The notes under the pieces are model-generated. The model did no database searches. It was not told where the DNA came from and saw only the letters and a list, made by a program, of their open reading frames with translations. From the NCBI GenBank assembly GCA_034004805.1, contig JAVEVZ010000001.1:1-49021 (forward strand): 49,021 nt of DNA, read 5' to 3'. Source of the stretch: Spongiibacteraceae bacterium. Lineage in GTDB: Bacteria; Pseudomonadota; Gammaproteobacteria; Pseudomonadales; CAMLJR01. This document shows positions 30,387-43,811 of this stretch, one piece after another (within the stretch, counting starts at the first letter, position 1; each line of letters starts with the position of its first letter). Both the position numbers and the translations under genes were made by a program.

Positions 30387-30414
30387 TCCGCCGGCGCGAC
30401 TCCCTCCTGTCCGG

Positions 30415-30439
30415 GGAACCTTCCTCCACAGCCGCCGTA
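30415..30439 (+). promoter_or_regulatory. ECF-type promoter P1 (GGAAC-N16-CGTA)
   Basis: GGAAC CTTCCTCCACAGCCGC CGTA. The -10 element ends 52 nt before the ATG of the GSP26-like gene. Confidence 0.7.
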
Positions 30440-30491
30440 GGTCAAGCAGAGCCTTTATTGGCATGTATCACAAACGGTAGTGAGGTGAGTT

Positions 30492-30980
30492 ATGGCGCAC
30501 AAATCCGAAGACCAGGAAGTGTGGGACCTTATCAAGGACGCCCAGGTCGGGATGCTGATAACCCGCGACGGGCGCAGCCTGCGCGCGCGTCCCATGCAGC
30601 TGGTGCAGAAGAACTACGAGGGCAAGATCTGGTTTTTTACCCGGGTCGCCTCGGAAAAAGTGCTGGAGGCGCTGGGGGAAGACGTCGTGTGCCTGACTTT
30701 CTCTGAACCCAGGCACAATACCTATGTTTCCCTGTCCGGCGTTGCCCGCCTGTCCTATGACCGCAAACTGATGGACGGGCTGTGGAACTCCTTTACCAAT
30801 GCCTGGTTTCCCGAGGGAGTGGAGTCGCCCGATGTCGCCTTGCTGGAAATCGAGGTGTACCAGGGGGAGTACTGGAAACCGGACGAGAACAAAATTCTCC
30901 GCGCCTATGAGCTGGCCAAGGCCAACTACAGGCACCAGCTGCCCGACATAGGCAAGAATCAGAAATTCGATCGCCACTGA
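30492..30980 (+). CDS. pyridoxamine 5'-phosphate oxidase-fold general stress protein (GSP26-like)
   Basis: 162 aa. VWDLIKDAQVGMLITRDGRSLRARPM...GKIWFFT resembles the YdaG/GSP26 PNPOx-like family. Confidence 0.8.
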   Translation: MAHKSEDQEVWDLIKDAQVGMLITRDGRSLRARPMQLVQKNYEGKIWFFTRVASEKVLEALGEDVVCLTFSEPRHNTYVSLSGVARLSYDRKLMDGLWNSFTNAWFPEGVESPDVALLEIEVYQGEYWKPDENKILRAYELAKANYRHQLPDIGKNQKFDRH

Positions 30981-30986
30981 CCACCG

Positions 30987-31019
30987 CCGGCAGCGGCACG
31001 CACCGCTGCCGGTGCTTTT
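30987..31019 (+). terminator. rho-independent terminator
   Basis: CCGGCAGCGG-CACGCA-CCGCTGCCGG followed by TGCTTTT, 7 nt after the stop codon. Confidence 0.8.
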
Positions 31020-31130
31020 CTGCAACCTGTCAGTCCCACCGTTGCCGGTGCCGGTCGCCGGCCCGCGCCCGACTGTCGCGCCAATTGCTGCTAGACTTTC
31101 CGCCAGTTTATCGCGCACAGGCCGCTCACT

Positions 31131-31589
31131 ATGGACTGGTTGGACCAGCATATTCTGTATTGGCATTGGATCATTCTGGGTCTGGTGCTGTGCGCGGCCG
31201 AAATCTTCGTGCCGACATTTTTCATACTGTGGTTCGGCATCAGCGCGGTGGTGGTGGGACTGGTCACCTGGGCCGTGCCGCTGACCTTTACCTGGCAGCT
31301 GGCGGCCTGGATCAGCCTGACGATTGTTGATCTGTTGATCTGGCAGCGCTATGTCAGTCCGCGCATTCGCGACAAGACCCGCTCCGGCATGGCGCTGGAA
31401 GCCATGCTGGGCCAGGAGGCTACCGTGCTGGAGCACAGGCCTGAACAGCAGCGCGGCCGCCTGCGATTTGCGGCGCCTCTGCTGGGCAGCGACGAGTGGA
31501 CCTATATCTGCACCCAGGAAACCCGCGCCGGTGACCGGGTTCGCGTCACGGGTTTTTCCGGCAATACCCTGATTGTTGAAAAGCGCTGA
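31131..31589 (+). CDS. NfeD-family membrane protein
   Basis: 152 aa with 3 TM helices and a C-terminal OB-like soluble domain (GRLRFAAPLLGSDEWTYICTQETRAGDRVRVTGFSGNTLIV). It is paired with a downstream SPFH gene. Confidence 0.8.
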   Translation: MDWLDQHILYWHWIILGLVLCAAEIFVPTFFILWFGISAVVVGLVTWAVPLTFTWQLAAWISLTIVDLLIWQRYVSPRIRDKTRSGMALEAMLGQEATVLEHRPEQQRGRLRFAAPLLGSDEWTYICTQETRAGDRVRVTGFSGNTLIVEKR

Positions 31590-31622
31590 GTCACCGGGCG
31601 CACACACCGAGGAAGACTGTCA

Positions 31623-32468
31623 ATGGAAGGCCTGGCCATCGTCGCAACCTTCGCGGTACTGGTTGCCGTTACCATCGGGATGGGGGTAAGAATTGTTCCC
31701 CAGGGTTCAAAACATATTGTGCAGCGCCTGGGTAAATACCACGGAACGCTCAATCCCGGCCTCAATATCATCATTCCCTATGTCGACACGGTGCCCTACC
31801 AGGTCACCACCAAGGACATCGTGCTGGATATCCCCTCACAGGACGTGATTACCGAGGACAACGCGGTGATCATTGCCAACGCGGTGGCCTACATCAATAT
31901 TGTCTCGCCGGAAAAAGCCGTCTACGGCGTCGAGGACTACATCGTCGCAATCCGCAACCTGGTGCAGACCGCGCTGCGCTCCATCATCGGCGAGATGAGT
32001 CTCGACGCGGCCCTGTCCTCCCGCGATCAGATCAAGGCCAAGCTCAAGGCCGCGATCTCCGACGATATTTCCGACTGGGGCATTACCCTCAAGACCGTGG
32101 AAATTCAGGACATCAACCCGTCGCCCACCATGCAGCGCGCCATGGAAGAGCAGGCCGCCGCCGAGCGCTTGCGCCGGGCGGCCGTGACCAAGGCCGAGGG
32201 CGACAAGCAGGCCGCCATCCTAGAGGCCGAGGGCCGGCTCGAGGCATCAAAGCGGGATGCCCAGGCCCAGGTCGTGCTGGCGCGCGCCAGCCGCGAAGCG
32301 ATACAGCAGATATCCGAGGGCATCCGCGGCGAAGAACTGCCCGCGATGTTCCTGTTGGGCGAGCGCTATGTGGATGCCATGAAGGATGTGGCCCTGTCGG
32401 CCAACACCAAGACGCTGATATTCCCCGCCGACCTGCCCGAGGCGGTCAAGGGCATACTCAGCAAATAG
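31623..32468 (+). CDS. SPFH/band-7 (stomatin/QmcA-like) protein
   Basis: N-terminal TM helix, VPQGSKHIVQRLGKYHGTLNPGLNIIIPYVD, then an Ala/Glu-rich coiled coil. Confidence 0.9.
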   Translation: MEGLAIVATFAVLVAVTIGMGVRIVPQGSKHIVQRLGKYHGTLNPGLNIIIPYVDTVPYQVTTKDIVLDIPSQDVITEDNAVIIANAVAYINIVSPEKAVYGVEDYIVAIRNLVQTALRSIIGEMSLDAALSSRDQIKAKLKAAISDDISDWGITLKTVEIQDINPSPTMQRAMEEQAAAERLRRAAVTKAEGDKQAAILEAEGRLEASKRDAQAQVVLARASREAIQQISEGIRGEELPAMFLLGERYVDAMKDVALSANTKTLIFPADLPEAVKGILSK

Positions 32469-32534
32469 CCAATCGCGACGATAGGACGATAGACAGGAGC
32501 CGCCAGACAGTGCGGGAGAATGCAGGGGCAGCGC

Positions 32535-32903
32535 TCAGTATCGCCCGGCGCGCTTGCGGCCGGTCTGCGTGCTCCGGCGCGGCCCGAGTAACCGGGACCG
32601 GCTGGCCTTGTCGCTCCCCCTGCCGTTGTCGCAGCTTTTGCCATCGCAGCCCTCGACGGCGGCTGAAGTGTGTCCCGGCGCTGGCGCCGCGAAGGTTTTC
32701 CGCTTCCGGCCCCCGCCTTGCGGTTCTCCGCCCGGCGCGCCAAGTCGCGTCAATAATTCCCGCTCGCGATACAGTTGACGGTAGCGGCGCATGGCCGCCG
32801 GGTTGTGCGCCAGAAACAGCGCCACCCTCAGCCACTCGTCATCCGCAAGTTCGTCATCGACCAGTGCCTGTATTGCTAAATCGTCCACTTTGAGCGAACA
32901 CAT
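32535..32903 (-). CDS. possible small anti-sigma-factor-like protein
   Basis: From the ATG at 32903, MCSLKVDDLAIQALVDDELADDEWLRVALFLAHNPAAMRRYRQLYRERELL resembles the N-terminal sigma-binding helix pattern of anti-sigma factors (xxLxAYVDGELxxxE...P). The C-terminal half is basic, low-complexity and has no TM helix. Weak call. Confidence 0.35.
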   Translation of the reverse strand: MCSLKVDDLAIQALVDDELADDEWLRVALFLAHNPAAMRRYRQLYRERELLTRLGAPGGEPQGGGRKRKTFAAPAPGHTSAAVEGCDGKSCDNGRGSDKASRSRLLGPRRSTQTGRKRAGRY

Positions 32904-33044
32904 AGGCAGTTCCACAACCCGCGATTTATTACTGTCAGCTATCAGAATCTGTGACCGCGTGGTCAGTTCGGCGCTAACAAAGGCGTTGGTATAACAATGC
33001 AGCACGGTCGCGTTTTGTTCCCTGATTGCTGCCTTGCGGTAGCG

Positions 33045-33069
33045 GGAACCGCAACGCCGCCACTGCGTT
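33045..33069 (+). promoter_or_regulatory. ECF-type promoter P2 (GGAAC-N16-CGTT)
   Basis: GGAAC CGCAACGCCGCCACTG CGTT. The -10 element ends 36 nt before the DUF1328 ATG. Confidence 0.75.
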
Positions 33070-33105
33070 AGTTCAGCCGACACGGTAAATTAAAGGAGAA
33101 TCGCG

Positions 33106-33282
33106 ATGTTATATTGGGCGCTGGTCTTTCTGGTCGTGGCCTTGATTGCAGGGGTGCTGGGTTTCGGTGGCATAGCGGCGGCTTCCGCGGGCATAGCAAA
33201 GATACTGTTCTTTCTGTTCTTTGTTCTGTTTGTTATTGCCGCGATTATGCATGCACTGCGCGGTAAATCCCCTCCCATGTGA
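33106..33282 (+). CDS. DUF1328 (YtjA/UPF0391) small membrane protein; absent from the ORF track because under 60 aa
   Basis: [58 protein letters not shown] (58 aa) matches the DUF1328 signature. AAAGGAGA sits 7 nt upstream. Confidence 0.85.
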
Positions 33283-33458
33283 CCGCCGCCGGTTCGTGGT
33301 CGTCGGTCGCCGGCTGCCCTGGCGCTCGCTTTTGCAGGCGTCGGGGTATTACAGTTGCGCTGGTGACTGGATGTGTGACCAGGAAGGCATTCGCGGCCGA
33401 CGCGACCGACCCGGTCTGCCAGCCTGGCATGCCGCCAGTCTGGTCTTAAGGGATGACC

Positions 33459-35690
33459 ATGAACGGCGTATTTATCCGCAACTACGTATTCTTCGGCGTT
33501 ATGCTGCTGTGCTGTGTTGGCACGCTGGGCTATTTTCTGGTGTCCGGCAACAATGAACTGCAGCGCAACGCCGCGCTTGTAAACCGTACCCATGCAACGA
33601 TTGCCGAGGTCGAAAAGGTCGCGGGCCTGGTCGAAGGCATGGTGGCGGCGGAGCGCGGTTACATCATCTCCGCGCAGGAGAGTTCCCTCAAAGTCTATGA
33701 GGCCAAGAAGGCCAGCGTCTCCGAGAGCATCGCGGTGCTCAGCGAGCTGACCGCGGACAGTCAGGCGCAGCGCAGCCGACTGGACGAACTGAGAAATTAT
33801 TTCGTGCGCCTGAGCAGCGAGCTCGAAGCCCGCAGCGCCGCGGTGCAGCCCGGCCTTCCCTACCTGCCGCTGGACGGCGTGGAGACCATCAACGGTATCC
33901 GCGACAACATTACCCGCATCTCCGGCGCCATGCTGGGCGAAGCCCGTGAGTCACTGCGCACCCGCGCCGTGGCACTGGAATGGCAGCGGGCCCGCTACCT
34001 CGATGCGCTGCTGATCGGCATTATTGCAGGTACGGCGCTACTGCTGATCCTGAATGGCTTCCTGCTCAGAGCGCAGCAGAAGCGCAGCTCTGTCGAAGCC
34101 AGCCTGAAGGATGCCGAAACGCGGTTCGCGCTGGCGATTGAAGGCACTCAGGACGGCATCTTCGACTGGGATATCACTACCAACCAGGTGTTTTATTCGC
34201 GTCGTTTTTACCAGATGCTGGGGTATGAGAAGGACGCGTTTTACGGAACTATCAAGGACCTCACCGACGCGGTACACCCCGACGACGTAGAGCGGGTGTG
34301 GTCCACGATAGAGCGGTATCTGGAAGGGGAGACCGCTGAATACGCCCAGGATTTCCGCATGCGACACAGTTCGGGGCGCTGGGTGTGGGTGCAGTCGCGC
34401 GGCAAGGCGATTTTTGATCACAACGGCAGGCCTGTGCGCATGGTGGGCGCCCACAGCGACATCTCTGAAACGATCCGTACCCAGGAGCGCCTGCTGGGAG
34501 AGAAGCAGCGCGCCGAGGAGTACAGTCAGGCAAAAACCGAGTTCCTTGCGCACATGAGCCACGAAATACGTACCCCGTTGACGGCCATCAGCGGAATCGC
34601 CGAGATACTCAACAAAAAGATATCGGAGATTGACCCGCGCCATCATCGCCTGCTGTCCACTCTGCTGACCAGTTCCACGTCCCTTAAGGACCTGGTCAAC
34701 GATGTGCTGGACTTCTCCAAGATTGAAAGTGGTGATATCGAACTGAGTGAAGAGATGTTCCGGCTGGATATCATGCTGGAGGAAGTGGTCAGCATGATGG
34801 CGCTCAAGGCCAACGAGAAAGGGATTAATTTTCTCTGTGACTTCAAGGTCGCCGCAGGCAGGGAACTGCTGGGCGATCGAGGCCGTATCCGCCAGATCGT
34901 GGTCAATCTGATCGGCAACGCCATCAAGTTTACCGACAGCGGCGGCGTCTCGGTTCACGTCGATATTGAAGAGCGCGACCAGCAGACGTTTTTGCGCGCG
35001 GACGTAACAGACACCGGTATTGGAATTGCCGCTGAAGATTTCGATCTGGTTTTTGAGCGTTTCAAGCAGGCCGACTCATCCGTGTCGCGCCGCTATGGCG
35101 GCACAGGCCTGGGGTTGTCGATCTCACGCAACCTGGCGCGCATTATGGGCGGGGACATCTTCGTCAGCAGCACCCTGGGGGTCGGATCCACATTCTCGCT
35201 GGTGTTGCCCGCGCATCTCATGCCGGTCGAGGATGCGCGCGATACCTCTGATCAGGTGGTGGAAGCACTGAGTGGCCAGATCCGGCAGACCCTGTCCAGA
35301 TGGACCCCCGAGCGCGGCCGTATTCTGGTGGTGGATGATTATGAGGGCAATATTGTGGTGCTCGGCTGTCTGCTGGATGAGCTGGGGGCCGATTACGATG
35401 TTGCGCGCTCCGGCGTTGAAGCGCTGAAAAAATGGCAGGAGGCGCCATACCGCCTGATCCTGATGGATATCCAGATGCCCGAGATGGATGGCTACACCAC
35501 CGTGGCGGAGATCCGTCGCGAGGAGGCGATGAGCGGGCGTCCGCGTACGGCGATTGTAGGCATGACGGCCCATGCTCTGGCCGGTGACGGTGAGCGCTGT
35601 CTGGAGGTGGGCATGGATGACTACCTGCCGAAGCCATTGGTTGAGGCGGACTTTAAGCGGGTGCTGTTGCGGCTGCTGGTGGAAAATTAG
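33459..35690 (+). CDS. hybrid sensor histidine kinase (CHASE3-PAS-HisKA-HATPase-REC)
   Basis: TM helix plus a CHASE3-like periplasmic/coiled region, a PAS domain ([19 protein letters not shown]), H-box [11 protein letters not shown]-boxes ([15 protein letters not shown]) and a C-terminal receiver ([13 protein letters not shown]). The ATG at 33459 has better SD spacing than 33453. Confidence 0.9.
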
Positions 35691-35855
35691 GTCAGCTCTG
35701 GAGACCTGCTGCGCTGGATATCTGAGGCGTAGCGGTGCGCGGAATGTGCATTGATACCCTGATAAATCCCGCCTCCTGCGCGCCGCGTCGCCTGTCTTCC
35801 CCCGCTATTTTTTTCAGAGGTTCCCAGGGTCCTGAAAAGGCGGCTGGATATTTCT

Positions 35856-35880
35856 GGAACTGTTAGAGACCTGTTCCGTC
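35856..35880 (+). promoter_or_regulatory. ECF-type promoter P3 (GGAAC-N16-CGTC)
   Basis: GGAAC TGTTAGAGACCTGTTC CGTC. The -10 element ends 35 nt before the ATG at 35916. Confidence 0.65.
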
Positions 35881-35915
35881 AGTGGCATTGAAGCAGATGG
35901 GACTTGGAGTAGATC

Positions 35916-36107
35916 ATGAGCAATAGAGCACTGCTGACGATGCTCGCGATTCTTGTGGTAGGTACCCTGACAGTCATTGGCGTTCTGGTCCGCAGTGATC
36001 GGGCATGGGAGCTGGCCGATAGCGAGAGCCGGGAGGTGGCGGCAGAAGCGCTAACCACCGCGCAAGCGCCGCTTGCCGCGCCCGGCGAGTCTGCCGCCGG
36101 CCATTAA
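35916..36107 (+). CDS. small single-pass membrane protein (63 aa)
   Basis: N-terminal TM helix LLTMLAILVVGTLTVIGVLV, GGAG SD and an ECF-type promoter upstream. No family recognised. Confidence 0.5.
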   Translation: MSNRALLTMLAILVVGTLTVIGVLVRSDRAWELADSESREVAAEALTTAQAPLAAPGESAAGH

Positions 36108-36159
36108 GGCCGTGAAAAAAACCAGGCCGTGAAAAAAACCGAGCCGTGGAAAAACCACG
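36108..36159. repeat. three tandem 17-18 bp repeats (GCCGTGAAAAAAACC-type)
   Basis: GGCCGTGAAAAAAACCA / GGCCGTGAAAAAAACCGA / GCCGTGGAAAAACCACG, starting right after the stop codon of the small ORF, between convergent genes. The third unit can fold as CGTGG-AAAAA-CCACG. Confidence 0.8.
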
Positions 36160-36237
36160 CGGATGGCGCGACCACTTCAACCTCTCATTGCCTTCCGCAT
36201 TGCTGTGCGCTTCTCTGCGGCCCATGCTGTTGCAGCG

Positions 36238-36804
36238 CTATGCGCGGGCATTGGTCATGCCTGCCGCACTGCGATTGGCGGCCCGTTGATGCAGGCCGGC
36301 GAGCGTTGCCGTGGAGATCGATACCTGCGCTGTGTTCATGGCTGCATGCAGACTCTCCCTGGCTCTGGACAAACGCGAGCGCACCGTGCCGACAGGAATC
36401 GCCAGCAGCTCAGAGACCTCCGCGTAGCGCATGCCGTTGATGCCGATCAGAGTCAGGATTTCGCGGTGGTCGGCACTCAGTCTCTGCATGGCGGCCAGTG
36501 CGTTAGCCAGCTCCGCGCTGGGCTCTTGATCCGGTTCAGAGATCTCCCGCGCGATATACCAATCCGGGTCGTACTGGGTCTCATAGCGCGCCTTCTTGCG
36601 GTAGTTAGAGACGAACTGGTTGAACATGATCTTGGCCGTCCAGCTGAAGAGGCTGGAGTCCGCCTGGAACTGCTGGCGTTTCTCTATGGCCTTGAGCAGC
36701 GTGTTCTGCAGCAGGTCGTCAGCGTCACTGGCATTCCGCGTCAGCTTGTGCGCGAAGCGCTGCAGCTTCTTGCTTTCATCAATCAGATCGCTATCCGTAA
36801 ACAT
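36238..36804 (-). CDS. ECF (group 4 sigma-70) RNA polymerase sigma factor
   Basis: Region 2 (DADDLLQNTLLKAIEKRQQF, SLFSWTAKIMFNQFVSNYRK) and region 4 (LSADHREILTLIGINGMRYAEVSELLAIPVGTVRSRLSRARESL). The ATG at 36804 is preceded by GGAGAAG. The alternative upstream ATG at 36831 lacks an SD. Confidence 0.9.
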   Translation of the reverse strand: MFTDSDLIDESKKLQRFAHKLTRNASDADDLLQNTLLKAIEKRQQFQADSSLFSWTAKIMFNQFVSNYRKKARYETQYDPDWYIAREISEPDQEPSAELANALAAMQRLSADHREILTLIGINGMRYAEVSELLAIPVGTVRSRLSRARESLHAAMNTAQVSISTATLAGLHQRAANRSAAGMTNARA

Positions 36805-36872
36805 GGCGTCTTCTCCGTTGTCGTTTGGCATCAGACTACGGAGGAGCCGTAACAGGGGCTTGTCGCTACTGT

Positions 36873-36896
36873 AACGGTATTGAAAATCTTTGTTTC
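36873..36896 (-). promoter_or_regulatory. weak candidate autoregulatory ECF-type promoter of the sigma gene
   Basis: The minus strand reads GAAAC-N15-CGTT, with one -35 mismatch and a spacer one nt short relative to P1-P4. It lies about 70 nt upstream of the ATG at 36804. Confidence 0.3.
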
Positions 36897-36966
36897 AAAT
36901 TTGTAACAGCCGCTATATATTCTGTCCGCTCAAGGGGTGGGAATTGATCATCGTGGAGCGGGCACC

Positions 36967-37713
36967 GTGCCGAAAGGACTGATACTGAGCATCGAAGATG
37001 ACGAGGGGCTTCAAGTCGTTCTCCAGCACTCCCTGGAAGAAGAAGGGTACCGCGTGCTGTGCGCCGGTACCGTGGAGGCCGCCCTTGAAAACGTCAATCG
37101 CGCAAACCTCAGCGCCATACTTCTGGATCTGACGCTGCCCGACGGCGAGGGGTTGGACCTTATTCCGATGATCCGGGCCAGGACCAGGGCCGCGATTATT
37201 GTGGTGTCCGGCAAGGACAGCGCCACCGAGAAGGTGGTGTGTCTGGAAATGGGCGCGGACGACTATATGACCAAGCCGTTCGAGATGCGCGAACTGCTGG
37301 CGCGCATCAAGGCCGTTCTGCGGCGCGCGGGCCCGTCCGCGATGCCCGAAATGGACCCGGCCAACGATCTCAGATCCGCGGTGCGATTGGCCTTTGCCGG
37401 CGGCTGGAGCCTGGATCGGTCACAGTTCCAGTTGTTCGACCGGGACGGGCGCTCCGCTGGCCTGACTACCGGGGAGTTTCGGCTGCTCGATTCGCTGGTG
37501 ACCGCACCCAATCGCGCCTTGAGTCGCGAGTACCTTCACGAGGTCACCCGCGACGGCCAGTACGATATTTACGACCGCGCCATCGATATTCAAATTGCCC
37601 GATTGCGCCGCAAACTGGGCGATGACACCAAAACTCCCAGCCTGATCAAAACTGTAAGAGGCGTTGGCTACATGTTCTGCGCCGAAGTCAGTATTGTCGA
37701 CACTGTCGAATAA
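36967..37713 (+). CDS. OmpR/PhoB-family response regulator
   Basis: REC domain (ILSIEDDEGLQ, ILLDLTLPDGEG, KPFEMRELLARIKAVLRR) plus a winged-helix domain (LTTGEFRLLDSLV, IDIQIARLRRKL, IKTVRGVGYMF). The GTG at 36967 has GGAG 8 nt upstream. The track start is at 36937. Confidence 0.9.
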   Translation: MPKGLILSIEDDEGLQVVLQHSLEEEGYRVLCAGTVEAALENVNRANLSAILLDLTLPDGEGLDLIPMIRARTRAAIIVVSGKDSATEKVVCLEMGADDYMTKPFEMRELLARIKAVLRRAGPSAMPEMDPANDLRSAVRLAFAGGWSLDRSQFQLFDRDGRSAGLTTGEFRLLDSLVTAPNRALSREYLHEVTRDGQYDIYDRAIDIQIARLRRKLGDDTKTPSLIKTVRGVGYMFCAEVSIVDTVE

Positions 37714-38002
37714 GCGCACCTGCTTGAGCGCCCGGCACCTGCGACGCGCTCGGATCACGCAGGGAGCGCGAAGCCTGCAGGTTCCCACATCGTATGTCGG
37801 GCTCGCGGCGCGGGTTCAATGCGCCCTGCGCGCAGCCACTCCGATCGACCGTTTGAAGCAGGCCGCGCCCGGTCCGGGCGAGGCTTAGCGTTCCTCTCAA
37901 GCAGCACTTCGGCTGCAGTTTTTCTATTGCGGGATCCGCTTTGTAATCGTTGATTTCATCTTCTTATCACGGTGTCGGACAGGCGCTGAACGGTGCGCGG
38001 CT

Positions 38003-38027
38003 GGAACTGATTCACAGCCATTGCGTA
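38003..38027 (+). promoter_or_regulatory. ECF-type promoter P4 (GGAAC-N16-CGTA)
   Basis: GGAAC TGATTCACAGCCATTG CGTA. The -10 element ends 42 nt before the ATG of the BON-domain gene. Confidence 0.7.
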
Positions 38028-38069
38028 GGTGGATCGTCTTGAGTTGATAAGCCAAATGAGGAACCATCC

Positions 38070-38669
38070 ATGAACACCATCAAGCGTTCATTCAGTCATA
38101 TTGCTATTGCCATTGCGGCCACGGGTGCTTTGGCGCTGCCCGCTGTGGTCACCTACGCGGATTCCAACGCAAGTGATTCCACCAGCATGGAGCAAAGCGT
38201 CAAGCAGGGCTGGAAGGAAGGTGTGATCGAAGGCGCGTTTCTGTTCAACACCAATCTCAACCCGCTGGATATCGACGTCGAAGTAAAAGGCTCCACCGCA
38301 ATTCTGACCGGCTATGTCGACACCGATGCGGCGAAGGCGCTGGCGGCGGAAGTGGCTCTCAGTGTCGATGGCATCACTGAGGTCGACAATCAGATCAAGG
38401 TCGACAAGGCGAAATCTGCCAGGGATGACGACGGCATGGATGATCTGAAATCCGATATTTCCGACGCTGCCATTACCACCAAGGTGAAATCCAAGCTGCT
38501 GGCCAACACACAGGTATCCGGGCTGTCAGTCAATGTCGAAACCAAGGATCGCGTGGTAACCCTTAAGGGCGAGGTCGATACCGATACCGAGCGAGATCTG
38601 GTGTATTACATCACGCGCAACACCGATGGCGTGCGTGGCATCAACAACGAGCTTTCAGTCAAGAAGTAA
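38070..38669 (+). CDS. periplasmic BON-domain protein (OsmY-like)
   Basis: Signal peptide, then two BON repeats (IDVEVKGSTAILTGYVDTDAAKALAAEVALSVDGITEVDNQIKV and VNVETKDRVVTLKGEVDTDTERDLVYYITRNTDGVRGINNELSV). Confidence 0.88.
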   Translation: MNTIKRSFSHIAIAIAATGALALPAVVTYADSNASDSTSMEQSVKQGWKEGVIEGAFLFNTNLNPLDIDVEVKGSTAILTGYVDTDAAKALAAEVALSVDGITEVDNQIKVDKAKSARDDDGMDDLKSDISDAAITTKVKSKLLANTQVSGLSVNVETKDRVVTLKGEVDTDTERDLVYYITRNTDGVRGINNELSVKK

Positions 38670-38765
38670 ATGACTGGCGGGTCGGTGCAGGCGGGGCGGG
38701 CGCTTCTGGCTTGCCTGATAAACGTCGCGGTATCCGGCCCGGAAAAGATCGTCAGGAGCAACGTT

Positions 38766-39347
38766 ATGTTTAACAAATACTCTATTTTTGCTGCCGCCAT
38801 CTGCGGTTTCAGCGCGCTGAGCATAACTCCTGCGCAAGCGGATTCCGAGCCGCGCGATGGTTATCGCAGCGGTTTTTACATAGGCGCCAACTACGGCGGA
38901 TTCAAATCACGTGGCGACGAGTTCGATGACGACAATGATTACTACGAAGCGGTGGTCGGTGGAAATATCTCGCCGTACTTTGCCATCGAAGGCAGTTATA
39001 CCGACTTTGGCGACTTTGGCGGCAAACTCGCCTCGGCCGACCTGGACGGCTATGGCATAGCTGTTATTGGCCGTTTGCCGATCACGGATGTGTTTTCGGT
39101 GTATGCAAAAGCCGGCCAGTTCTTCTGGGAGTCCGACGTGGATGTCCTGGGTGCTCGCACTGACGTGGAGGGCGACGAGCCGTTCTTTGCAGCAGGTCTG
39201 GATTTTCTGCTGACTGACCATTTCAGCGTGGCGCTGGAGTACAGTCGGTATAAGTTTGATCTCAGTGATTCCAGCCTGCCAGACGCGCTGGATGACTACG
39301 AGACCGACATCGACACCGTCAAGCTTGGCGCCAAACTGTTGTTTTGA
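38766..39347 (+). CDS. outer-membrane beta-barrel protein (OmpA-N/OmpW-like porin family)
   Basis: Signal peptide MFNKYSIFAAAICGFSALSITPAQA, alternating aromatic/Gly beta-strand pattern and a terminal ...VKLGAKLLF. The ATG at 38766 is preferred over the track start at 38670. Confidence 0.8.
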   Translation: MFNKYSIFAAAICGFSALSITPAQADSEPRDGYRSGFYIGANYGGFKSRGDEFDDDNDYYEAVVGGNISPYFAIEGSYTDFGDFGGKLASADLDGYGIAVIGRLPITDVFSVYAKAGQFFWESDVDVLGARTDVEGDEPFFAAGLDFLLTDHFSVALEYSRYKFDLSDSSLPDALDDYETDIDTVKLGAKLLF

Positions 39348-39410
39348 GCGTCATCCATTGCTTGGTACACGTGACACAGCAACCGATGCAGGCAACACGA
39401 GGATACGATC

Positions 39411-39614
39411 ATGAATAAACACGAATTCAAAGGTAACTGGCAACAGCTCAAGGGCAAAGTCCAGGAGCAGTGGGGCAAACTGACCGGTGATGACCTCACG
39501 CGCATAGATGGTCAGTACGAGCAGCTGGTCGGGATGCTTCAGGAGCGCTATGGCAAGAGCAAGGAAGCGGCGGAAAAAGAGGTCAATCAATACCTGAACC
39601 AGACCCGCCACTGA
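39411..39614 (+). CDS. CsbD-family stress protein
   Basis: MNKHEFKGNWQQLKGKVQEQWGKLTGDDLTRIDGQYEQLVGMLQERYGKSKEAAEKEV is a canonical CsbD/YjbJ signature. Confidence 0.93.
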   Translation: MNKHEFKGNWQQLKGKVQEQWGKLTGDDLTRIDGQYEQLVGMLQERYGKSKEAAEKEVNQYLNQTRH

Positions 39615-39648
39615 TCAGTGGCGGGTCCGCCAACCTCGAGCAACCGGG

Positions 39649-39678
39649 GCCTGCGGCGCGAGCCGCCGCGGGCTTTTT
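39649..39678 (+). terminator. rho-independent terminator after csbD
   Basis: GCCTGCGGCG-CGAG-CCGCCGCGGGC stem (one G-U pair) followed by TTTTT. Confidence 0.75.
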
Positions 39679-40152
39679 ATCCGTTCCGAGCGGGTACTGA
39701 TCCGCACTGATTCACGCCGCTCATCGAGCCATGTCCCTGCAGCGGCTCAACCCTCTGCAGCGGCCCATTCTCCTCAGCAACCCTTTACAGCAGAGCGGCG
39801 CGCGATGCGTATCCGGGCCAGCAGGCGCTTCAGCAGCGTCGGGCCACCGGCTGGTGATGGGCTGCCGAGATTTCCGCGGCCGGCGTATACACAGACATCG
39901 CGAGCGATGCTGGCCAGTTGGTCCACACTGAGCCTGGAGGGTGACTGCTGCATATCAAAGACCCCTGCTTCTGGTTATCGGTATCGTGGATCCGCTCGAC
40001 CGCATAAGGCTGAACGAGCGCCCTGACCGGCAACTCAGCAATTGGCATTCCAGCTGTGCATAAAGTGTTTGGAATCATGGATCTATACAAAAGCATTGGC
40101 CCGCTTCCTGCCTTCCCTGTAAATTGCACCGACAGCATCTAAGGAGCCTGTC

Positions 40153-40470
40153 GTGGTTGAGTTGGCTGATCTTGCGGCGCTGCTGCTGATGGTGGCCGGG
40201 ATTCTGTATTGGTGGCGCGCCCAGGGTGTGCGCGAGCTGGCGGTGAATGCCGTGCGCGCCTATTGCCGGGCGGGGGAGGTCCAGTGGCTGGACGAGACCG
40301 TGGCGCTGCGCGGCTTCTGGTTGAAGCGCGATCCCCGGGGTCGCTTCTGTATCTGGCGGTCCTACAACTTCGAATTTACCGACACCGGGGAACAGCGCCA
40401 CCAGGGGCGAATCATTCTGCTGGGCCGTCAGGTCGAAGCGATACAACTGCGGCCCGATTGGCTGCATTGA
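40153..40470 (+). CDS. DUF3301-like small membrane protein
   Basis: N-terminal TM helix then WWRAQGVRELAVNAVRAYCRAGEVQWLDETVAL...WRSYNFEFTDTGEQRHQGRIILLG, matching my recollection of DUF3301. Confidence 0.65.
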   Translation: MVELADLAALLLMVAGILYWWRAQGVRELAVNAVRAYCRAGEVQWLDETVALRGFWLKRDPRGRFCIWRSYNFEFTDTGEQRHQGRIILLGRQVEAIQLRPDWLH

Positions 40471-40524
40471 TAACCGCTGTGCCGAGAGTGAGCGCACGGG
40501 CAAACACGGAACAGCGGGGAGTAG

Positions 40525-42849
40525 ATGATGCGAGGCTTGATCTGGGCACTGCTGGTGACGGTGCTGGTAGGTTGTGCGGCAATCGCGGGACGCCAGCTGG
40601 ATGCGCAGTTTGGCGCCGAAGACGTCCGGCTGCGCGCCACCAGCGCTGACTATCGCACGCATATCGCGCCCATCCTCGAGAGCCGTTGTGTCGTGTGCCA
40701 TGGCTGCTATGACGCGCCCTGCCAGCTCAAGCTGAGCAGCTTCGAAGGGCTGGAGCGGGGCGGACACAAGACCAAGGTCTACGATGGCACCCGCTTGCTG
40801 ACCGCCTCGCTGACCCGGCTGTACGTCGATGAGACCCGGGTTGAAGGCTGGCGTCAGCGGGGCTTCTTTCCGGTGTTGAACGAGCGCAGCGCAGCGGCCG
40901 ATCTGCATGGCAGTGTGCTGGCGCGCATGCTTGCGCTCAAACAGGCGCACCCGCTGCCCGACCAGGCGGTGTTGCCCGACAGCTTCGACTTTTCTCTGGA
41001 TCGCAACCAGCAATGCCCGCGCGTCGAAGAGTTCGACAGCTACGCCCGCGACTACCCCCTGTGGGGTATGCCCTACGGTCTGCCGGCGCTGAGCGATGCG
41101 GAGCACCGCCAGCTGGTGGACTGGTTGGCGAAAGGCGCGCCAGGGCCCAGGCCACTGGCGCTGTCGCCGGCAGAGCGCGCGGAACTGGCGCGCTGGGAGG
41201 AGTTCCTCAACCAGCCAGACAACAAGGCTCGGCTGATGAGCCGCTATATCTACGAACACCTGTTTCTGGGCGCCCTGTATTTCGCCAATCAGCGGGACGG
41301 CCGCTTTTATGAACTGGTGCGCTCGCGCACGCCGCCCGGTGAACCCATAGACCTGATTGCGAGCCGGCGTCCCTATGACGACCCCGGTGTCGAGGCGTTC
41401 TACTACCGCTTGCGGCCACGGCTCGAGAGCGTACTGGTCAAAACCCATATGCCCTATCTGCTGGATGACGCCCGCATGGCGCGCTGGCGGGAGTGGTTTC
41501 TGGAGGCGGATTACCAGATCACTGCACTGCCGGGTTATACGCCCCAGCTCGCCGCCAATCCCTTTGCGACCTTTGCGGAGCTGCCGGTGCGCAGTCGCTA
41601 CCGGTATATGCTCGACGAAGCGCAGTACACCATCATGGGGTTTATCAAGGGGCCCGTGTGTCGCGGCCAGGTTGCGCTCAATGTCATCAACGACCATTTC
41701 TGGGTCGTGTTCGTCGATCCCGACCGAGTGGATCAGGAGTATGACAAGGCCTTTCTGGCAGAGGCCAGCAAAGACCTGGGCCTGCCCGTGACGCGCCAGA
41801 GCAACGTCATGGCGCTGGCCGACTGGTTGGCCTACTCGCGGGAGGAAAAGGCCTGGCAAATGCGCAAGGGAGAGCATTTGCGGCAGCGCTTCGCCGATTC
41901 CCGCGGGCCTGCGCTCGATATCGTCTGGAGCGGCGATGGCGTGAACACCAATGCAGCGCTGACAGTGTTCCGCCACTTTGACAGTGCTACGGTGGTCAGG
42001 GGCCTGGTGGGAGACACGCCACAGACGACCTGGCTGGTGAGTTACTCCCTGCTGGAACGCATCCATTACCTGCTGGTGGCCGGGTTTGATGTCTACGGCA
42101 ATGTCGGGCATCAGCTGGTAACGAGACTCTATATGGACTTCCTGCGCATGGAGGGCGAACAGAATTTTCTGGCGCTGCTGCCGGATAGCGCCCGCGAAGA
42201 GGCGCTCGCGCACTGGTATCGGGAGGCGCCTGAGGAAGCGCAGCAGTTTGTCGGTGGAAAATGGTTTGGCGAGTTGATGCCGTCGCAGGTCGTCTACCAC
42301 AGTGAACAACCGCTGCCCGAGCTTCGTGGCCTGCTTAAACAGCGCCTGGACGGCGTGTTGGACAGGCGCCATAGCCTGCGTGCCAACCTCGCACCGGCTG
42401 CGGTGAGTGCCGCTCTGCGGGAACTGGAGTTGCTGCCCTGGCAGGCTGTTGCGTTGCTGCCACAGACCAGTGTGCTGCTGGTCGATGAGGGTTCCCGGCG
42501 CCATGTGTACACACTGGTGCACAACAATGCACACCTGAATGTCTCGTCGCTGTTCGACGAAAGCAAGCGACGGGTGCCGAAGGAAGATACCGTCACCGTG
42601 GTCAGTGGCGTGCTGGGCGCCTACCCCAACCAGTTGCTGAGAGTTAACGCCGGGCAGATGCAGGCGTTTTCGCAGACGGTGGCGGCGATGACCACAGAGG
42701 CTGACTACGCGGCGATGCTGAGCCGTTACGGTGTGCGGCGCAGTGATCCCGACTTCTGGGCGCACAGCGATGAACTGCACCGGCTGTACCGCGCACAAGG
42801 CGGCGTGGAGGCCGGCTGGTTGGATTTCAATCGCCTGGACAACCGCTGA
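40525..42849 (+). CDS. cti: fatty acid cis/trans isomerase (periplasmic c-type haem protein)
   Basis: 774 aa with a lipoprotein-like signal (LLVTVLVGCAA) and a CVVCH haem-binding motif within ILESRCVVCHGCYDAPCQLKLSSFEGLERG, as in Pseudomonas/Vibrio Cti. Length matches. Confidence 0.88.
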   Translation: MMRGLIWALLVTVLVGCAAIAGRQLDAQFGAEDVRLRATSADYRTHIAPILESRCVVCHGCYDAPCQLKLSSFEGLERGGHKTKVYDGTRLLTASLTRLYVDETRVEGWRQRGFFPVLNERSAAADLHGSVLARMLALKQAHPLPDQAVLPDSFDFSLDRNQQCPRVEEFDSYARDYPLWGMPYGLPALSDAEHRQLVDWLAKGAPGPRPLALSPAERAELARWEEFLNQPDNKARLMSRYIYEHLFLGALYFANQRDGRFYELVRSRTPPGEPIDLIASRRPYDDPGVEAFYYRLRPRLESVLVKTHMPYLLDDARMARWREWFLEADYQITALPGYTPQLAANPFATFAELPVRSRYRYMLDEAQYTIMGFIKGPVCRGQVALNVINDHFWVVFVDPDRVDQEYDKAFLAEASKDLGLPVTRQSNVMALADWLAYSREEKAWQMRKGEHLRQRFADSRGPALDIVWSGDGVNTNAALTVFRHFDSATVVRGLVGDTPQTTWLVSYSLLERIHYLLVAGFDVYGNVGHQLVTRLYMDFLRMEGEQNFLALLPDSAREEALAHWYREAPEEAQQFVGGKWFGELMPSQVVYHSEQPLPELRGLLKQRLDGVLDRRHSLRANLAPAAVSAALRELELLPWQAVALLPQTSVLLVDEGSRRHVYTLVHNNAHLNVSSLFDESKRRVPKEDTVTVVSGVLGAYPNQLLRVNAGQMQAFSQTVAAMTTEADYAAMLSRYGVRRSDPDFWAHSDELHRLYRAQGGVEAGWLDFNRLDNR

Positions 42850-43613: not shown

Positions 43614-43620
43614 AAAAAAA

Positions 43621-43650: not shown

Positions 43651-43811
43651 TGACTGCCCTGGAAGTCAGTCCAACCTACTCCCTCGAGTACTAACCCAAT
43701 CGCTTACCTATTCACACACCTAATCACTAGCCAAGGCATTGAGCCGATACTGACCATGGGTCCGATCGTTCCCAACATCGCCCGTTCCCGGGCGATGTTG
43801 CCCGCTGTCGC

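What the first reader, a model, noticed from the sequence alone, without database searches (positions are those of the whole stretch)
36238..37713. ECF sigma lacks an adjacent anti-sigma gene and is divergently paired with an OmpR-type regulator; GTAAC(A/G)G boxes lie in the shared AT-rich intergenic region
ECF sigma genes are usually co-transcribed with their anti-sigma factor. Here the DNA downstream of the sigma gene holds only a tandem repeat and a convergent small ORF.

The gene is instead divergent from an OmpR/PhoB-family response regulator. The shared intergenic region of about 160 bp is conspicuously AT-rich. It carries three direct copies of GTAAC(A/G)G at 36849, 36871 and 36903. Their spacings of 22 and 32 bp are roughly 2 and 3 helical turns, the arrangement expected for OmpR-family binding.

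This suggests transcriptional control of the sigma factor by a two-component system. The established precedent is Streptomyces sigE controlled by CseBC. It does not look like anti-sigma sequestration.

The only candidate self-promoter (GAAAC-N15-CGTT at 36873-36896) is imperfect, which fits dependence on an activator.
Basis: partly seen in the sequence, partly recalled or inferred. Interest (0 to 1): 0.6.

Follow-up and report, generated by a model that had tools for sequence, protein, structure and literature searches.

The report
Two-component-driven ECF sigma with mini anti-sigma
The boxes are part of a conserved array of likely OmpR-type regulator sites in front of a stress sigma factor gene, so control by a kinase and regulator is well supported, but the sigma is not free of an anti-sigma: a roughly 55-residue anti-sigma gene sits 3.3 kb away in the same conserved, horizontally acquired gene module.

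Summary
The ECF sigma gene (36238-36804, minus) is divergent from an OmpR-family regulator gene (36967-37713).

The boxes are three of six 11-bp-phased G(A/T)(A/T)ACA half-sites. The array ends 10 bp upstream of a TAnnnT -10 element. Its order and spacing recur in about 20 orthologous loci from Micavibrio- and Sneathiella-type Alphaproteobacteria. The regulator's recognition helix is nearly that of E. coli OmpR. None of 25 such regions carries the sigma's own target motif (GGAAC-N16/17-CGTT). This supports activation of the sigma gene by the regulator.

The inference that there is no anti-sigma sequestration is not supported. The conserved module is mini-ASD<|>DUF1328-hybrid kinase> <sigma|regulator>. 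The small gene (32538-32903, minus) models confidently as three helices, and 19 of its top 20 PDB fold matches are ECF anti-sigma domains. It has its own GGAAC promoter, and in one locus it lies directly downstream of the sigma gene.

The sigma belongs to a sister clade of EcfG. PhyR and NepR are absent. The host is a Cellvibrionales-like gammaproteobacterium, and none of about 440 sampled relatives carries the module, so it was acquired horizontally.

I found no published description. I rate it a new variant of a known kind.

The parts
36238..36804 (-). ECF sigma factor gene (188 aa, EcfG-like sister clade); alternative upstream ATG at 36831 is unlikely to be used
   Evidence: Pfam Sigma70_r2, Sigma70_r4_2 and a weak PhyR_sigma2 hit. 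Best NCBIfam matches are PRK12511/12546/12547, all below cut-off. The MF N-terminus is invariant in 33 homologues. It sits in a 100/100-supported clade of 30 sequences.
36967..37713 (+). OmpR/PhoB-family response regulator gene (alternative GTG start at 36937)
   Evidence: Response_reg and Trans_reg_C; best NCBIfam match is OmpR at 176 bits, below cut-off. Read from the sequence: acidic pocket EDDE, phospho-acceptor in LLDLTLPD, and KPF. Recognition helix DRAIDIQIARLRRKL against OmpR ERSIDVQISRLRRMV. Orthologues of 49-61% identity are divergent from the sigma gene in about 20 loci.
36848..36908 (-). Array of six 11-bp-phased half-sites G(A/T)(A/T)ACA read on the sigma-sense strand: h1 36907-36902 GTTACA, h2 36896-36891 GAAACA, h3 36886-36881 TTTTCA, h4 36875-36870 GTTACA, h5 36864-36859 GACAAG, h6 36853-36848 GTTACG.
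   Evidence: Anchored alignment of 20 orthologous intergenic regions gives the consensus TGTTACAAAAATGAaACAAAcTTTTTCAaaActGaTACAtt.C.GACAAA.....GTTAC with high per-column information. A shortened version (h1, h2, h5, h6) is seen in the Stellaceae clade. GWWACA-N5-GWWACA occurs twice in the whole genome.
36833..36838 (-). Predicted -10 element (TAGTCT) of the sigma gene promoter, 10 bp downstream of h6, with no -35 consensus
   Evidence: TA..cT is conserved at fixed register (columns 70-75) in 20 loci. -TTAC-N10-TAGnnT is also seen in the Stellaceae loci. Calling it a promoter element is inference.
36894..36921 (+). Sigma-70-like promoter of the regulator gene (TTCAAA-16-TATATT); its -35 overlaps h2 and its spacer overlaps h1
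   Evidence: This is the only sigma-70-type match in 35650-38100. A TATA(T/A)A element recurs 7-11 bp beyond h1 in the orthologous loci.
33453..35690 (+). Hybrid sensor histidine kinase (two TM segments, CHASE3, PAS, HisKA, HATPase, REC; no HPt), convergent with the sigma gene
   Evidence: Pfam. Orthologues of 39-55% identity lie convergent downstream of the sigma gene in 17 loci and in L084.
33106..33282 (+). DUF1328 small membrane protein gene, first gene of the probable DUF1328-kinase operon
   Evidence: Pfam DUF1328; conserved upstream of the kinase gene in the orthologous loci.
33045..33068 (+). ECF-type promoter GGAAC-N16-CGT(T) for DUF1328-kinase
   Evidence: GGAAC-N16/17-(C/T)GTTGG is present at the same place upstream of DUF1328 in 11 of the 13 orthologous loci examined.
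32538..32903 (-). Mini anti-sigma-domain gene (122 aa here: conserved residues about 8-55, then a Gly/Arg-rich tail unique to this copy)
   Evidence: A family of about 60-aa proteins found in 15 module loci. zf-HC2 hits in 8 of 15 members, best E 1e-3. AlphaFold2 gives three helices with pLDDT 95-97 for residues 10-50. 19 of the 20 best PDB fold matches are ECF anti-sigma domains: ChrR, RslA, MucA, RskA, RsiW, DdvA. 678 representative clusters; the 150 best listed are almost all 57-104 aa. Directly downstream of the sigma gene in L025.
32996..33021 (-). ECF-type promoter GGAAC-N17-CATT for the mini anti-sigma gene, back to back with the DUF1328 promoter
   Evidence: 12 of 15 family members have GGAAC-N15-18-N(G/A)TT within 200 nt upstream.
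35856..36107 (+). ECF-type promoter (35856-35879) and a 63-aa single-pass membrane protein ORF (35916-36107), convergent with the sigma gene
   Evidence: No Pfam or NCBIfam match. Not conserved at this position in the other loci.
36107..36159 (.). 17-bp tandem repeat (2.8 copies) containing a terminator-like hairpin plus T-run for the sigma strand
38003..39614 (+). ECF-type promoter (38003-38026) followed by BON/OsmY-like (38070-38669), OmpA-like beta-barrel (38670-39347) and CsbD (39411-39614) genes: predicted regulon members
30415..32468 (+). ECF-type promoter (30415-30438) followed by genes for a pyridoxamine-oxidase-like stress protein, NfeD and SPFH/Band 7: predicted regulon members

Best explanation
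This is a three-tier stress switch carried on a horizontally acquired gene island.

Tier 1. A membrane CHASE3-PAS hybrid histidine kinase (33453-35690) phosphorylates the OmpR-family regulator (36967-37713). The transfer may be direct or go through an unlinked HPt protein.

Tier 2. The phosphorylated regulator binds head-to-tail to three adjacent dimer sites, which are six G(A/T)(A/T)ACA half-sites at an 11-bp period (36908-36848). The last half-site ends 10 bp upstream of a -10 element (TAGTCT, 36838-36833), and there is no -35. This is the geometry of PhoB/OmpR-type activation of a sigma-70 promoter. The regulator therefore switches on transcription of the ECF sigma gene, which has no promoter of its own type. 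The distal pair of sites overlaps the regulator gene's own sigma-70 promoter, so the regulator probably also autoregulates.

Tier 3. The sigma directs GGAAC-N16/17-CGT(T) promoters. These drive the surrounding stress genes (Pyrid_ox_like-NfeD-SPFH; a 63-aa membrane protein; BON-OMP-CsbD). They also drive the DUF1328-kinase operon, which gives positive feedback. Finally they drive a small soluble anti-sigma (32903-32538; conserved anti-sigma domain of about 55 residues) made of anti-sigma-domain helices 1-3. This protein binds the sigma and sets a threshold with negative feedback.

Shown here: gene content, conservation of the module and of the site array, the fold and family of the small protein, the distribution of promoter motifs, phylogeny and horizontal origin.

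Inferred: binding of the regulator to the array and the sign of its effect, kinase-regulator pairing, the sigma-anti-sigma interaction, and how the anti-sigma is overcome. The likely routes for the last are titration by newly made sigma or proteolysis.
For: Module conservation:
- The regulator orthologue is divergent and the kinase orthologue convergent in 17-20 loci, plus the closest metagenomic relative L084.

Site array:
- The consensus has high information at six phased positions and a fixed TA...T located 10 bp after the last site.
- The core (GACAnn-N5-GnTTAC-N10-TAGnnT) is also kept in the distant Stellaceae clade.
- The cluster is not expected by chance: 0 of 300 shuffles reached it.
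- The pattern is near-unique in the genome.

Regulator:
- The recognition helix is near-identical to OmpR, whose DNA-binding domain is the best-characterised close match in the PDB (E 3e-16).

Promoter hierarchy:
- None of 25 sigma-regulator intergenic regions has GGAAC-N15-18-NRTT in either orientation.
- 12 of 15 mini-ASD genes have it, and 11 of the 13 DUF1328 upstream regions examined carry GGAAC at the same place.
- In the window, GGAAC-N15-17-CGT gives 10 matches against 3.6 expected, and four of them lie in intergenic DNA ahead of stress genes.

Mini anti-sigma:
- zf-HC2 hits in 8 of 15 members.
- Confident three-helix model.
- 19 of the top 20 PDB fold hits are ECF anti-sigma domains, with Foldseek probability up to 0.96.
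- It sits in an operon position after the sigma gene in L025.
- It is present in 10 of 14 genomes that hold a close-clade sigma.
- In four control genomes with strong PhyR_sigma2 hits (canonical PhyR-NepR-EcfG confirmed in one) the profile gives nothing or only weak hits. Most of those weak hits are the N-termini of ORFs lying next to EcfG-like sigma genes.
Against: - The start site, regulator binding and the sign of regulation are inferred.
- Sites that reach -17 could also mean repression.
- The individual Foldseek E-values are at least 1 because the domain is short, and the PDB sequence-profile search found nothing relevant.
- The mini-ASD lacks helix 4 of a class I anti-sigma domain.
- It is missing from 4 of 14 genomes with the sigma, including one assembled as a chromosome.
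- The kinase is a hybrid with no HPt domain, and no HPt gene is in the module. A stand-alone HPt exists elsewhere, on contig C88.
- Nine of the 30 close-clade sigmas are not next to this regulator.
Confidence: 0.55

Rival explanations
1. The sigma is controlled only at the level of transcription by the two-component system, as for Streptomyces sigE/CseBC. The small three-helix protein is not its anti-sigma: it targets another sigma or has another role.
For: The sigma gene has no adjacent anti-sigma and no autoregulatory promoter. The mini-ASD is absent from 4 of 14 genomes that hold the sigma. It has only three of the four helices of a class I anti-sigma domain. Sequence-level evidence for anti-sigma identity is weak.
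Against: The mini-ASD gene is kept in the same module in 15 loci and lies in an operon position after the sigma gene in L025. It carries the sigma's own promoter type. Its fold matches are almost only ECF anti-sigma domains. The host genome has only one other ECF sigma, and that one is distant.
Confidence: 0.15
2. The array is a regulator operator, but it acts negatively on the sigma promoter. Alternatively it serves mainly to autoregulate the divergent regulator gene. In that case the sigma gene would be induced by release of the regulator.
For: Half-sites h5 and h6 cover about -38 to -17 relative to the predicted -10. Sites h1 and h2 overlap the -35 region and spacer of the regulator gene's sigma-70-like promoter. 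Regulators of the OmpR family can repress from such positions; this rests on general knowledge.
Against: The sigma promoter has no -35-like hexamer at 16-18 bp from the -10 in any locus, which is typical of activator-dependent promoters. The last direct repeat ending 10 bp from the -10 matches the pho-box arrangement used for activation; this comes from my memory of the PhoB literature and was not tested here.
Confidence: 0.12
3. The boxes are elements of an ECF-type autoregulatory promoter. Either h4 is the -35 and h6 the -10 (GWWAC-N16-NGTTAC), or the reader's GAAAC-N15-CGTT is the promoter. On this view they are not regulator binding sites.
For: The spacing of h4 and h6 mimics GGAAC-N16-CGTT, and several loci read GAAAC-N16-CGTTAC (L004, L009, L019). 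Most ECF sigmas autoregulate; this is general knowledge, also stated in PMC7826278.
Against: True target promoters in the same loci keep an invariant GGAAC and (C/T)GTTGG. By contrast h4 varies (GATAC, ATTAC, GTTAC, AATAC) and so does h6 (TGATAC, GCTTAC, GGACAC). No region passes even a relaxed motif. This reading explains neither h1-h3, nor the 11-bp phase, nor the conserved TA...T that follows.
Confidence: 0.07

Closest known systems
Streptomyces coelicolor sigE controlled by CseB/CseC (ECF39)
   Same: An OmpR-family response regulator directly drives transcription of an ECF sigma gene that is not autoregulated. The link is cited in PMC7826278.
   Different: It is a different ECF group: SigE-fam_strep scores 88.9 bits against a cut-off of 141.55. 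The gene order differs, divergent here against one sigE-cseABC operon there. The kinase here is a CHASE3 hybrid. Most important, a conserved anti-sigma-domain gene belongs to this module, whereas ECF39 subgroups 1-3 have none.
EcfG-NepR-PhyR general stress response of Alphaproteobacteria (ECF15)
   Same: The sigma is the nearest relative outside its own clade: 32% identity to Martelella EcfG and a PhyR_sigma2 hit. It uses the same promoter type, GGAAC-N16/17-CGTT. The regulon flavour is the same (CsbD, DUF1328, BON, entericidin). A response regulator gene is divergent from the sigma gene.
   Different: The regulator has a DNA-binding output instead of a sigma mimic. No PhyR or NepR was found in the host genome or in 8 genomes of the close clade. 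The anti-sigma candidate matches class I anti-sigma domains in fold and has no NepR motif. The sigma forms a separate clade with 100/100 support. The host is a gammaproteobacterium.
PhoB pho boxes and the OmpR F1-F3/C1-C3 sites of E. coli
   Same: Tandem direct-repeat half-sites at a period of 10-11 bp replace the -35. The half-sites GTTACA and GAAACA resemble OmpR half-sites, and the recognition helix is almost identical to OmpR. The site sequences and the 10-bp distance to the -10 are recalled from the literature.
   Different: The target is a sigma factor gene, and the period is 11 bp. The regulator is not an OmpR orthologue (176 bits against a cut-off of 331).
Class I anti-sigma domains (ChrR, RslA, RsiW, MucA, RskA)
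   Same: The fold matches helices 1-3. The N-terminal motif D(I/L)QALVDxEL resembles the LxAYxDGEL helix. There are weak zf-HC2 hits.
   Different: It is only about 55 conserved residues long, soluble, with no zinc ligands, no fourth helix and no transmembrane or sensor part. It is not encoded next to the sigma gene.
ECF246 and ECF234 of the ECF classification 2.0 (Casas-Pastor et al. 2021, PMC7826278)
   Same: ECF246 is described as having both a putative anti-sigma and a two-component system whose regulator carries a DNA-binding output. ECF234 is described as having such a system without an anti-sigma.
   Different: ECF246 includes a Leptospira member and is linked to antibiotic resistance (PMC12655853). 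ECF234 is linked to an ABC transporter. The group descriptions are in supplements that are not held, so membership could not be tested.
Sigma AntA of Streptomyces albus (ECF282)
   Same: It is an ECF sigma with a C-terminal Ala-Ala proposed as a ClpXP tag (PMC7826278). Here 17 of 30 close-clade sigmas end in AA.
   Different: The window's copy ends in ARA. Nothing was tested.

Membership tests
ECF (group IV) sigma-70 factors | Sigma-2 and sigma-4 domains only, about 180-200 aa | tested here: met
   Sigma70_r2 at residues 21-82 and Sigma70_r4_2 at 111-161; TIGR02937 scores 76.7 bits against a cut-off of 42.9.
EcfG (ECF15) | NepR anti-sigma encoded with the sigma | tested here: not met
   PF18557 gives no hit in the host genome at E up to 0.1 and none in 8 close-clade genomes. 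Caveat: the model also missed NepR in 2 of the 4 control genomes with strong PhyR_sigma2 hits.
EcfG (ECF15) | PhyR anti-anti-sigma (sigma-like domain fused to a receiver) in the genome | tested here: not met
   PF22029 hits only the sigma itself in the host genome. In 7 of the 8 close-clade genomes it gives only weak hits (most at the sigma gene itself) and in one none. The control genomes give hits at E 1e-19 to 1e-26. The host genome is 87% complete.
EcfG (ECF15) | Target promoter GGAAC-N16/17-CGTT upstream of general stress genes | tested here: met
EcfG (ECF15) | Phylogenetic placement with characterised EcfG | tested here: not met
   A separate 30-member clade with 100/100 support on a long stem. 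Martelella EcfG, taken from a canonical phyR-nepR-ecfG locus, falls in the other branch. Formal ECF Hub classification is not available here.
ECF39 (SigE/CseABC type) | Membership of the SigE family and absence of an anti-sigma | tested here: not met
   TIGR02983 scores 88.9 bits against a cut-off of 141.55. An anti-sigma-domain gene is conserved in the module.
OmpR/PhoB response regulators | Receiver domain with phospho-acceptor Asp plus a winged-helix Trans_reg_C output | tested here: met
   One search gives the domains. The acidic pocket, Asp, Ser and Lys-Pro motifs were read from the sequence.
OmpR/PhoB response regulators | Binding to tandem direct repeats at the regulated promoter | not testable with these tools
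   A conserved phased direct-repeat array is present. Binding needs EMSA or footprinting.
Class I anti-sigma domain proteins | Helical anti-sigma-domain fold | tested here: met
   Three helices with pLDDT 95-97. 19 of the top 20 PDB fold hits are anti-sigma domains, with TM-score on the target up to 0.70. Helix 4 is absent.
Class I anti-sigma domain proteins | Binds and inhibits its cognate ECF sigma | not testable with these tools
   Only context evidence is available: conserved linkage, an operon position in L025, and a sigma-type promoter.
ECF246 (two-component system plus anti-sigma context) | Assignment by the ECF Hub group models | not testable with these tools
   The group models and Supplementary Text S2 are not held. 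No spirochaete sequence is among the 80 best related loci.

The most novel reading that the evidence does not exclude
The module would be a self-contained, mobile alternative to the PhyR-NepR-EcfG partner switch. In Micavibrio- and Sneathiella-type Alphaproteobacteria that lack PhyR, the general stress response would be run by a CHASE3 hybrid kinase, an OmpR-type regulator, an EcfG-like sigma made on demand, and a three-helix minimal anti-sigma that sets the threshold. A C-terminal Ala-Ala degron on the sigma may add a further layer. The whole switch, together with its regulon island, has moved into a gammaproteobacterium. That gives an RpoS-type organism a second general stress sigma of alphaproteobacterial type.
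Probability: 0.35. Interest if true: 0.75.

Novelty: new variant of a known kind. Interest (0 to 1): 0.6.

Why it matters
ECF sigma factors are usually described as controlled either by an anti-sigma or, rarely, by a two-component system acting on transcription. This module appears to combine both in a fixed, widespread architecture. The anti-sigma family has 678 representative clusters, and the sigma clade occurs in many uncultured Alphaproteobacteria.

It offers three things:
- A very small natural anti-sigma domain, about 55 residues.
- A possible explanation of how lineages without PhyR and NepR run an EcfG-type stress regulon.
- A case of an EcfG-like system outside the Alphaproteobacteria, arriving by transfer of a complete regulator-plus-regulon island.

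The site array and promoters are defined well enough for direct tests in a laboratory host.

Tried and rejected
1. A NepR or PhyR partner switch. Searches of the host genome and of 8 related genomes were negative.
2. The convergent 63-aa ORF (35916-36107) as the anti-sigma. Its cytoplasmic N-terminus is only about 5 residues, it has no family match, and it is not conserved at that position. It is more likely a regulon member, since it has its own GGAAC promoter.
3. The boxes as an ECF autoregulatory promoter. Rejected on conservation grounds.
4. GACAAA (h5) as a -35 for the TAnnnT element. The spacer would be 20-22 bp, which is too long.
5. A sequence-profile search of the mini-ASD against the PDB gave only chance hits such as FieF. 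The fold search was informative instead.
6. The idea that the host lost rpoS and replaced it with this module. rpoS is not found in the host genome, while all 16 relatives have it. However, contig C17 ends 86 bp after nlpD, exactly where rpoS should follow. This is an assembly gap, not evidence of loss.
7. Membership of ECF246 or ECF234. The supplements are not held.
Full report
**What is at the site.** The minus-strand ORF 36238-36831 is an ECF sigma factor (Sigma70_r2, Sigma70_r4_2 and a weak PhyR_sigma2 hit). Its best NCBIfam matches are all below cut-off. An alignment of 33 homologues shows an invariant N-terminal Met-Phe. The start is therefore the ATG at 36804, which has GGAGA 7 nt upstream, and the protein is 188 aa. 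The divergent plus-strand gene (36967-37713) is a canonical OmpR/PhoB-family response regulator with an intact phospho-acceptor pocket. The 162-bp spacer has 50% GC against 63.7% for the window. The three GTAAC(A/G)G boxes are at the stated coordinates. The window-wide count is unremarkable (7 against 4.9 expected). Three same-strand copies within 61 bp never arose in 300 shuffles that preserve local composition. Downstream of the sigma stop lie a 17-bp tandem repeat that contains a terminator-like hairpin for the sigma strand and a convergent 63-aa membrane-protein ORF.

**The pairing is conserved and includes a kinase.** A scan of one genome per prokaryote species with a sigma profile gave 80 loci. 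In about 20 of them the orthologue of this regulator (49-61% identity) is divergent from the sigma gene. Most of these come from uncultured Micavibrio-like, Sneathiella and other alphaproteobacterial MAGs, with sigma identity of 40-57%. In 17 loci the orthologue of the upstream gene 33453-35690 lies convergent just after the sigma gene, preceded by a DUF1328 gene. That gene encodes a CHASE3-PAS-HisKA-HATPase-REC hybrid kinase (39-55% identity). The closest metagenomic relative, L084 from a TARA ocean sample (60% identity), has the same order and sits among CsbD, entericidin and related small stress genes.

**The boxes are part of a conserved, phased array.** The 20 intergenic regions align without gaps when read in the sigma-sense direction. 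The consensus is TGTTACAAAAATGAaACAAAcTTTTTCAaaActGaTACAtt.C.GACAAA.....GTTACaa...c..c.TA..cT.
- There are six half-sites of the form G(A/T)(A/T)ACA at a period of about 11 bp. Four are strong (h1, h2, h4, h6) and two are weaker (h3, h5).
- A 10-bp gap follows, then a conserved TAnnnT.
- No hexamer resembling a -35 lies 16-18 bp upstream of that element.
- In the window the half-sites are h1 36907-36902, h2 36896-36891, h3 36886-36881, h4 36875-36870, h5 36864-36859 and h6 36853-36848. The -10 is TAGTCT at 36838-36833.
- A more distant clade (Stellaceae; sigma 35-39% and regulator 40-42% identical) keeps a shorter version, h1-h2 plus GACAnn-N5-GnTTAC-N10-TAGnnT.
- The pattern GWWACA-N5-GWWACA occurs only twice in the 2.96-Mb host genome, and the three-site pattern occurs once.
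- The regulator's DNA-binding domain matches E. coli OmpR among the best PDB chains (E 3e-16). Its recognition helix reads DRAIDIQIARLRRKL against OmpR's ERSIDVQISRLRRMV.

From my knowledge of the literature, OmpR half-sites are of the GTTACA/GAAACA type, and pho boxes end 10 bp from the -10. I did not test either point here. The only sigma-70-type promoter match in the region (TTCAAA-16-TATATT, 36894-36921, plus strand) serves the regulator gene and overlaps h1 and h2.

**The sigma gene is not autoregulated, and its regulon is local.** GGAAC-N15-17-CGT is over-represented in the window (10 against 3.6 expected). Four matches lie in intergenic DNA ahead of stress-type genes:
- 30415, ahead of the Pyrid_ox_like-NfeD-SPFH genes;
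- 33045, ahead of DUF1328 and the kinase;
- 35856, ahead of the 63-aa ORF;
- 38003, ahead of BON-OMP-CsbD.

GGAAC-N16/17-(C/T)GTTGG is present at the same place upstream of DUF1328 in 11 of the 13 orthologous loci examined. In contrast, none of the 25 sigma-regulator intergenic regions contains even a relaxed version of this motif in either orientation. The array positions that mimic it (h4 and h6) vary in exactly the bases that are invariant in true targets. The hierarchy is therefore regulator, then sigma, then regulon. The kinase gene lies inside the regulon, which gives positive feedback.

**A hidden anti-sigma.** An earlier first-stage note on the same genome pointed to an anti-sigma-like ORF at 32535-32903, so I tested it.
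- The N-terminal 55 residues (…DDLAIQALVDDEL…RRYRQLYRERELL) belong to a family of proteins of about 60 aa. The family is found in 15 of the module loci, almost always divergent from DUF1328.
- In L025 the gene lies immediately downstream of the sigma gene on the same strand.
- The family is real and consistently short. It has 678 representative clusters in a library of 1.8 billion proteins, 322 of them at E of 1e-10 or better. Nearly all of the 150 best listed are 57-104 aa.
- Eight of 15 members give weak zf-HC2 (anti-sigma) hits.
- AlphaFold2 gives a three-helix unit with pLDDT 95-97 for residues 10-50. The Gly/Arg-rich tail, which only the window's copy has, is disordered.
- In a Foldseek search of the PDB, 19 of the 20 best matches are anti-sigma domains solved with their ECF sigmas: ChrR, RslA, MucA, RskA, RsiW and DdvA. 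Each E-value is weak because the domain is short, but the enrichment is striking.
- Twelve of 15 family genes have a GGAAC-N15-18-NRTT motif within 200 nt upstream. The exceptions include L025, where the gene can be co-transcribed with the sigma gene. In the window the motif is at 33021-32996, back to back with the DUF1328 promoter.
- The profile finds the gene in 10 of 14 genomes that carry a close-clade sigma.
- In four control genomes with strong PhyR_sigma2 hits (canonical PhyR-NepR-EcfG confirmed in one) it gives nothing or only weak hits. Most of those weak hits are the N-termini of ORFs lying next to EcfG-like sigma genes.

Taken together, this is most likely the cognate anti-sigma, reduced to helices 1-3 of a class I anti-sigma domain. 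Binding itself was not tested.

**What kind of sigma, and where from.**
- The sigma lies in a 30-member clade with 100/100 support on a long stem. This clade is sister to a branch that contains EcfG from a canonical phyR-nepR-ecfG locus in Martelella. Identity to that EcfG is 32%.
- PhyR and NepR are not detectable in the host genome or in 8 genomes of the clade. Control genomes give PhyR-type hits at E 1e-19 to 1e-26. The NepR model is insensitive, and the host genome is 87% complete.
- The host is a Cellvibrionales-like gammaproteobacterium. Its EF-P is 83-86% identical to those of Spongiibacteraceae, Litorivivens, Aurantivibrio and Halieaceae, and it has an epmB-efp-epmA cluster and a multi-HPt ChpA-like gene.
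- None of 40 relatives from its family and order carries the sigma. None of 400 genomes sampled across its class carries anything closer than 41% identity.
- The island from about 30 to 44 kb has 56-63% GC, against 64-68% for the rest of the contig.
- The module was therefore acquired horizontally from an alphaproteobacterial source, complete with its regulon.

**Mechanism.** The best-supported reading has three tiers: the kinase phosphorylates the regulator, the regulator switches on the sigma gene, and the sigma drives the local stress regulon.
- The CHASE3 kinase senses an extracytoplasmic cue and phosphorylates the regulator. The transfer may be direct or go through an HPt; a 123-aa open frame with an HPt domain (probably a stand-alone HPt protein) exists on contig C88.
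- The phosphorylated regulator occupies the three dimer sites and recruits the sigma-70 holoenzyme to a promoter that lacks a -35. This makes the sigma.
- The sigma transcribes the stress genes, more kinase, and its own inhibitor.
- How the mini anti-sigma is overcome is unknown. Titration by newly made sigma is the simplest idea.
- A further possible layer is proteolysis. Seventeen of 30 clade members, and 16 of 54 in the sister branch, end in Ala-Ala, the feature proposed as a ClpXP tag in sigma AntA (PMC7826278). The window's copy ends in ARA.

**Comparison and novelty.** The transcriptional half works like sigE/CseBC of Streptomyces (ECF39). The regulon and promoter type are those of EcfG (ECF15). 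The anti-sigma matches class I anti-sigma domains in fold. The module fails defining tests for both ECF15 and ECF39 (see the membership table). The ECF re-classification lists only ECF15, ECF246, ECF32, ECF234 and ECF39 as having two-component systems in context. ECF246, which combines an anti-sigma with a DNA-binding regulator, is the nearest description. However, it has a Leptospira member and is linked to antibiotic resistance, and I could not test membership. Full-text searches found no description of this module. I rate it a new variant of a known kind.

Noticed in passing
window 36238-36330 (sigma C-terminus); alignment A1; loci L004-L084: The sigma family has a 25-35-residue tail after region 4. 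The tail ends in Ala-Ala in 17 of 30 close-clade members and in 16 of 54 sister-branch members. The window's copy ends in ARA. This resembles the C-terminal AA proposed as a ClpXP tag in sigma AntA.
   Followed up: partly
L058:1827-2159, L080:6500-6850, L068:5053-5310, L031:6610-6933: Short proteins of 75-87 aa lie next to EcfG-like sigma genes of the sister branch. They combine an N-terminal helix of anti-sigma-domain type (weak zf-HC2 hits in three of the four) with a C-terminal NepR-like motif (…EPVPxxLLxLL; weak PF18557 hits, E 3e-5 to 1e-2). This hints that NepR and class I anti-sigma domains are related.
   Followed up: partly
genome contig C17:1-900 (not in the window): rpoS is not found in this genome, while all 16 sampled relatives have it. 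However, contig C17 ends 86 bp after the nlpD homologue, exactly where rpoS should follow. The absence is an assembly gap, not evidence of loss.
   Followed up: yes
window 30000-44000: The stress island has 56-63% GC, against 64-68% for the rest of the contig. It holds Pyrid_ox_like, NfeD, SPFH, DUF1328, BON, OmpA-like barrel, CsbD, DUF3301 and fatty-acid cis/trans isomerase genes. This fits acquisition as one block.
   Followed up: partly
window 32538-32740: The window's mini anti-sigma carries a Gly/Arg-rich C-terminal tail of about 65 residues. The tail is predicted disordered and is absent from all 14 other family members aligned, which end about 8 residues after a conserved LLxxWW. It may be a read-through or a frame artefact in GC-rich DNA.
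   Followed up: no
window 36107-36159: The 17-bp tandem repeat (AGGCCGTGAAAAAAACC, 2.8 copies) lies between the convergent 63-aa ORF and the sigma gene. It contains a hairpin plus T-run on the minus strand and probably serves as the sigma gene terminator.
   Followed up: partly
L017, L020, L034 (and L011, L022, L024, L026-L028): Nine members of the sigma clade are not next to the OmpR-type regulator. One sub-clade (L017, L020, L034) instead has DUF1328 directly upstream and a different regulator of 27-30% identity nearby. L034's genome still has the mini anti-sigma 3.3 kb from the sigma gene. These may be paralogues with different wiring.
   Followed up: no
window 27818-30386: An epmB-efp-epmA cluster is present (EF-P lysine beta-lysylation system). 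EF-P carries the KPGKG loop. I used EF-P only to place the host among Cellvibrionales-like Gammaproteobacteria.
   Followed up: partly
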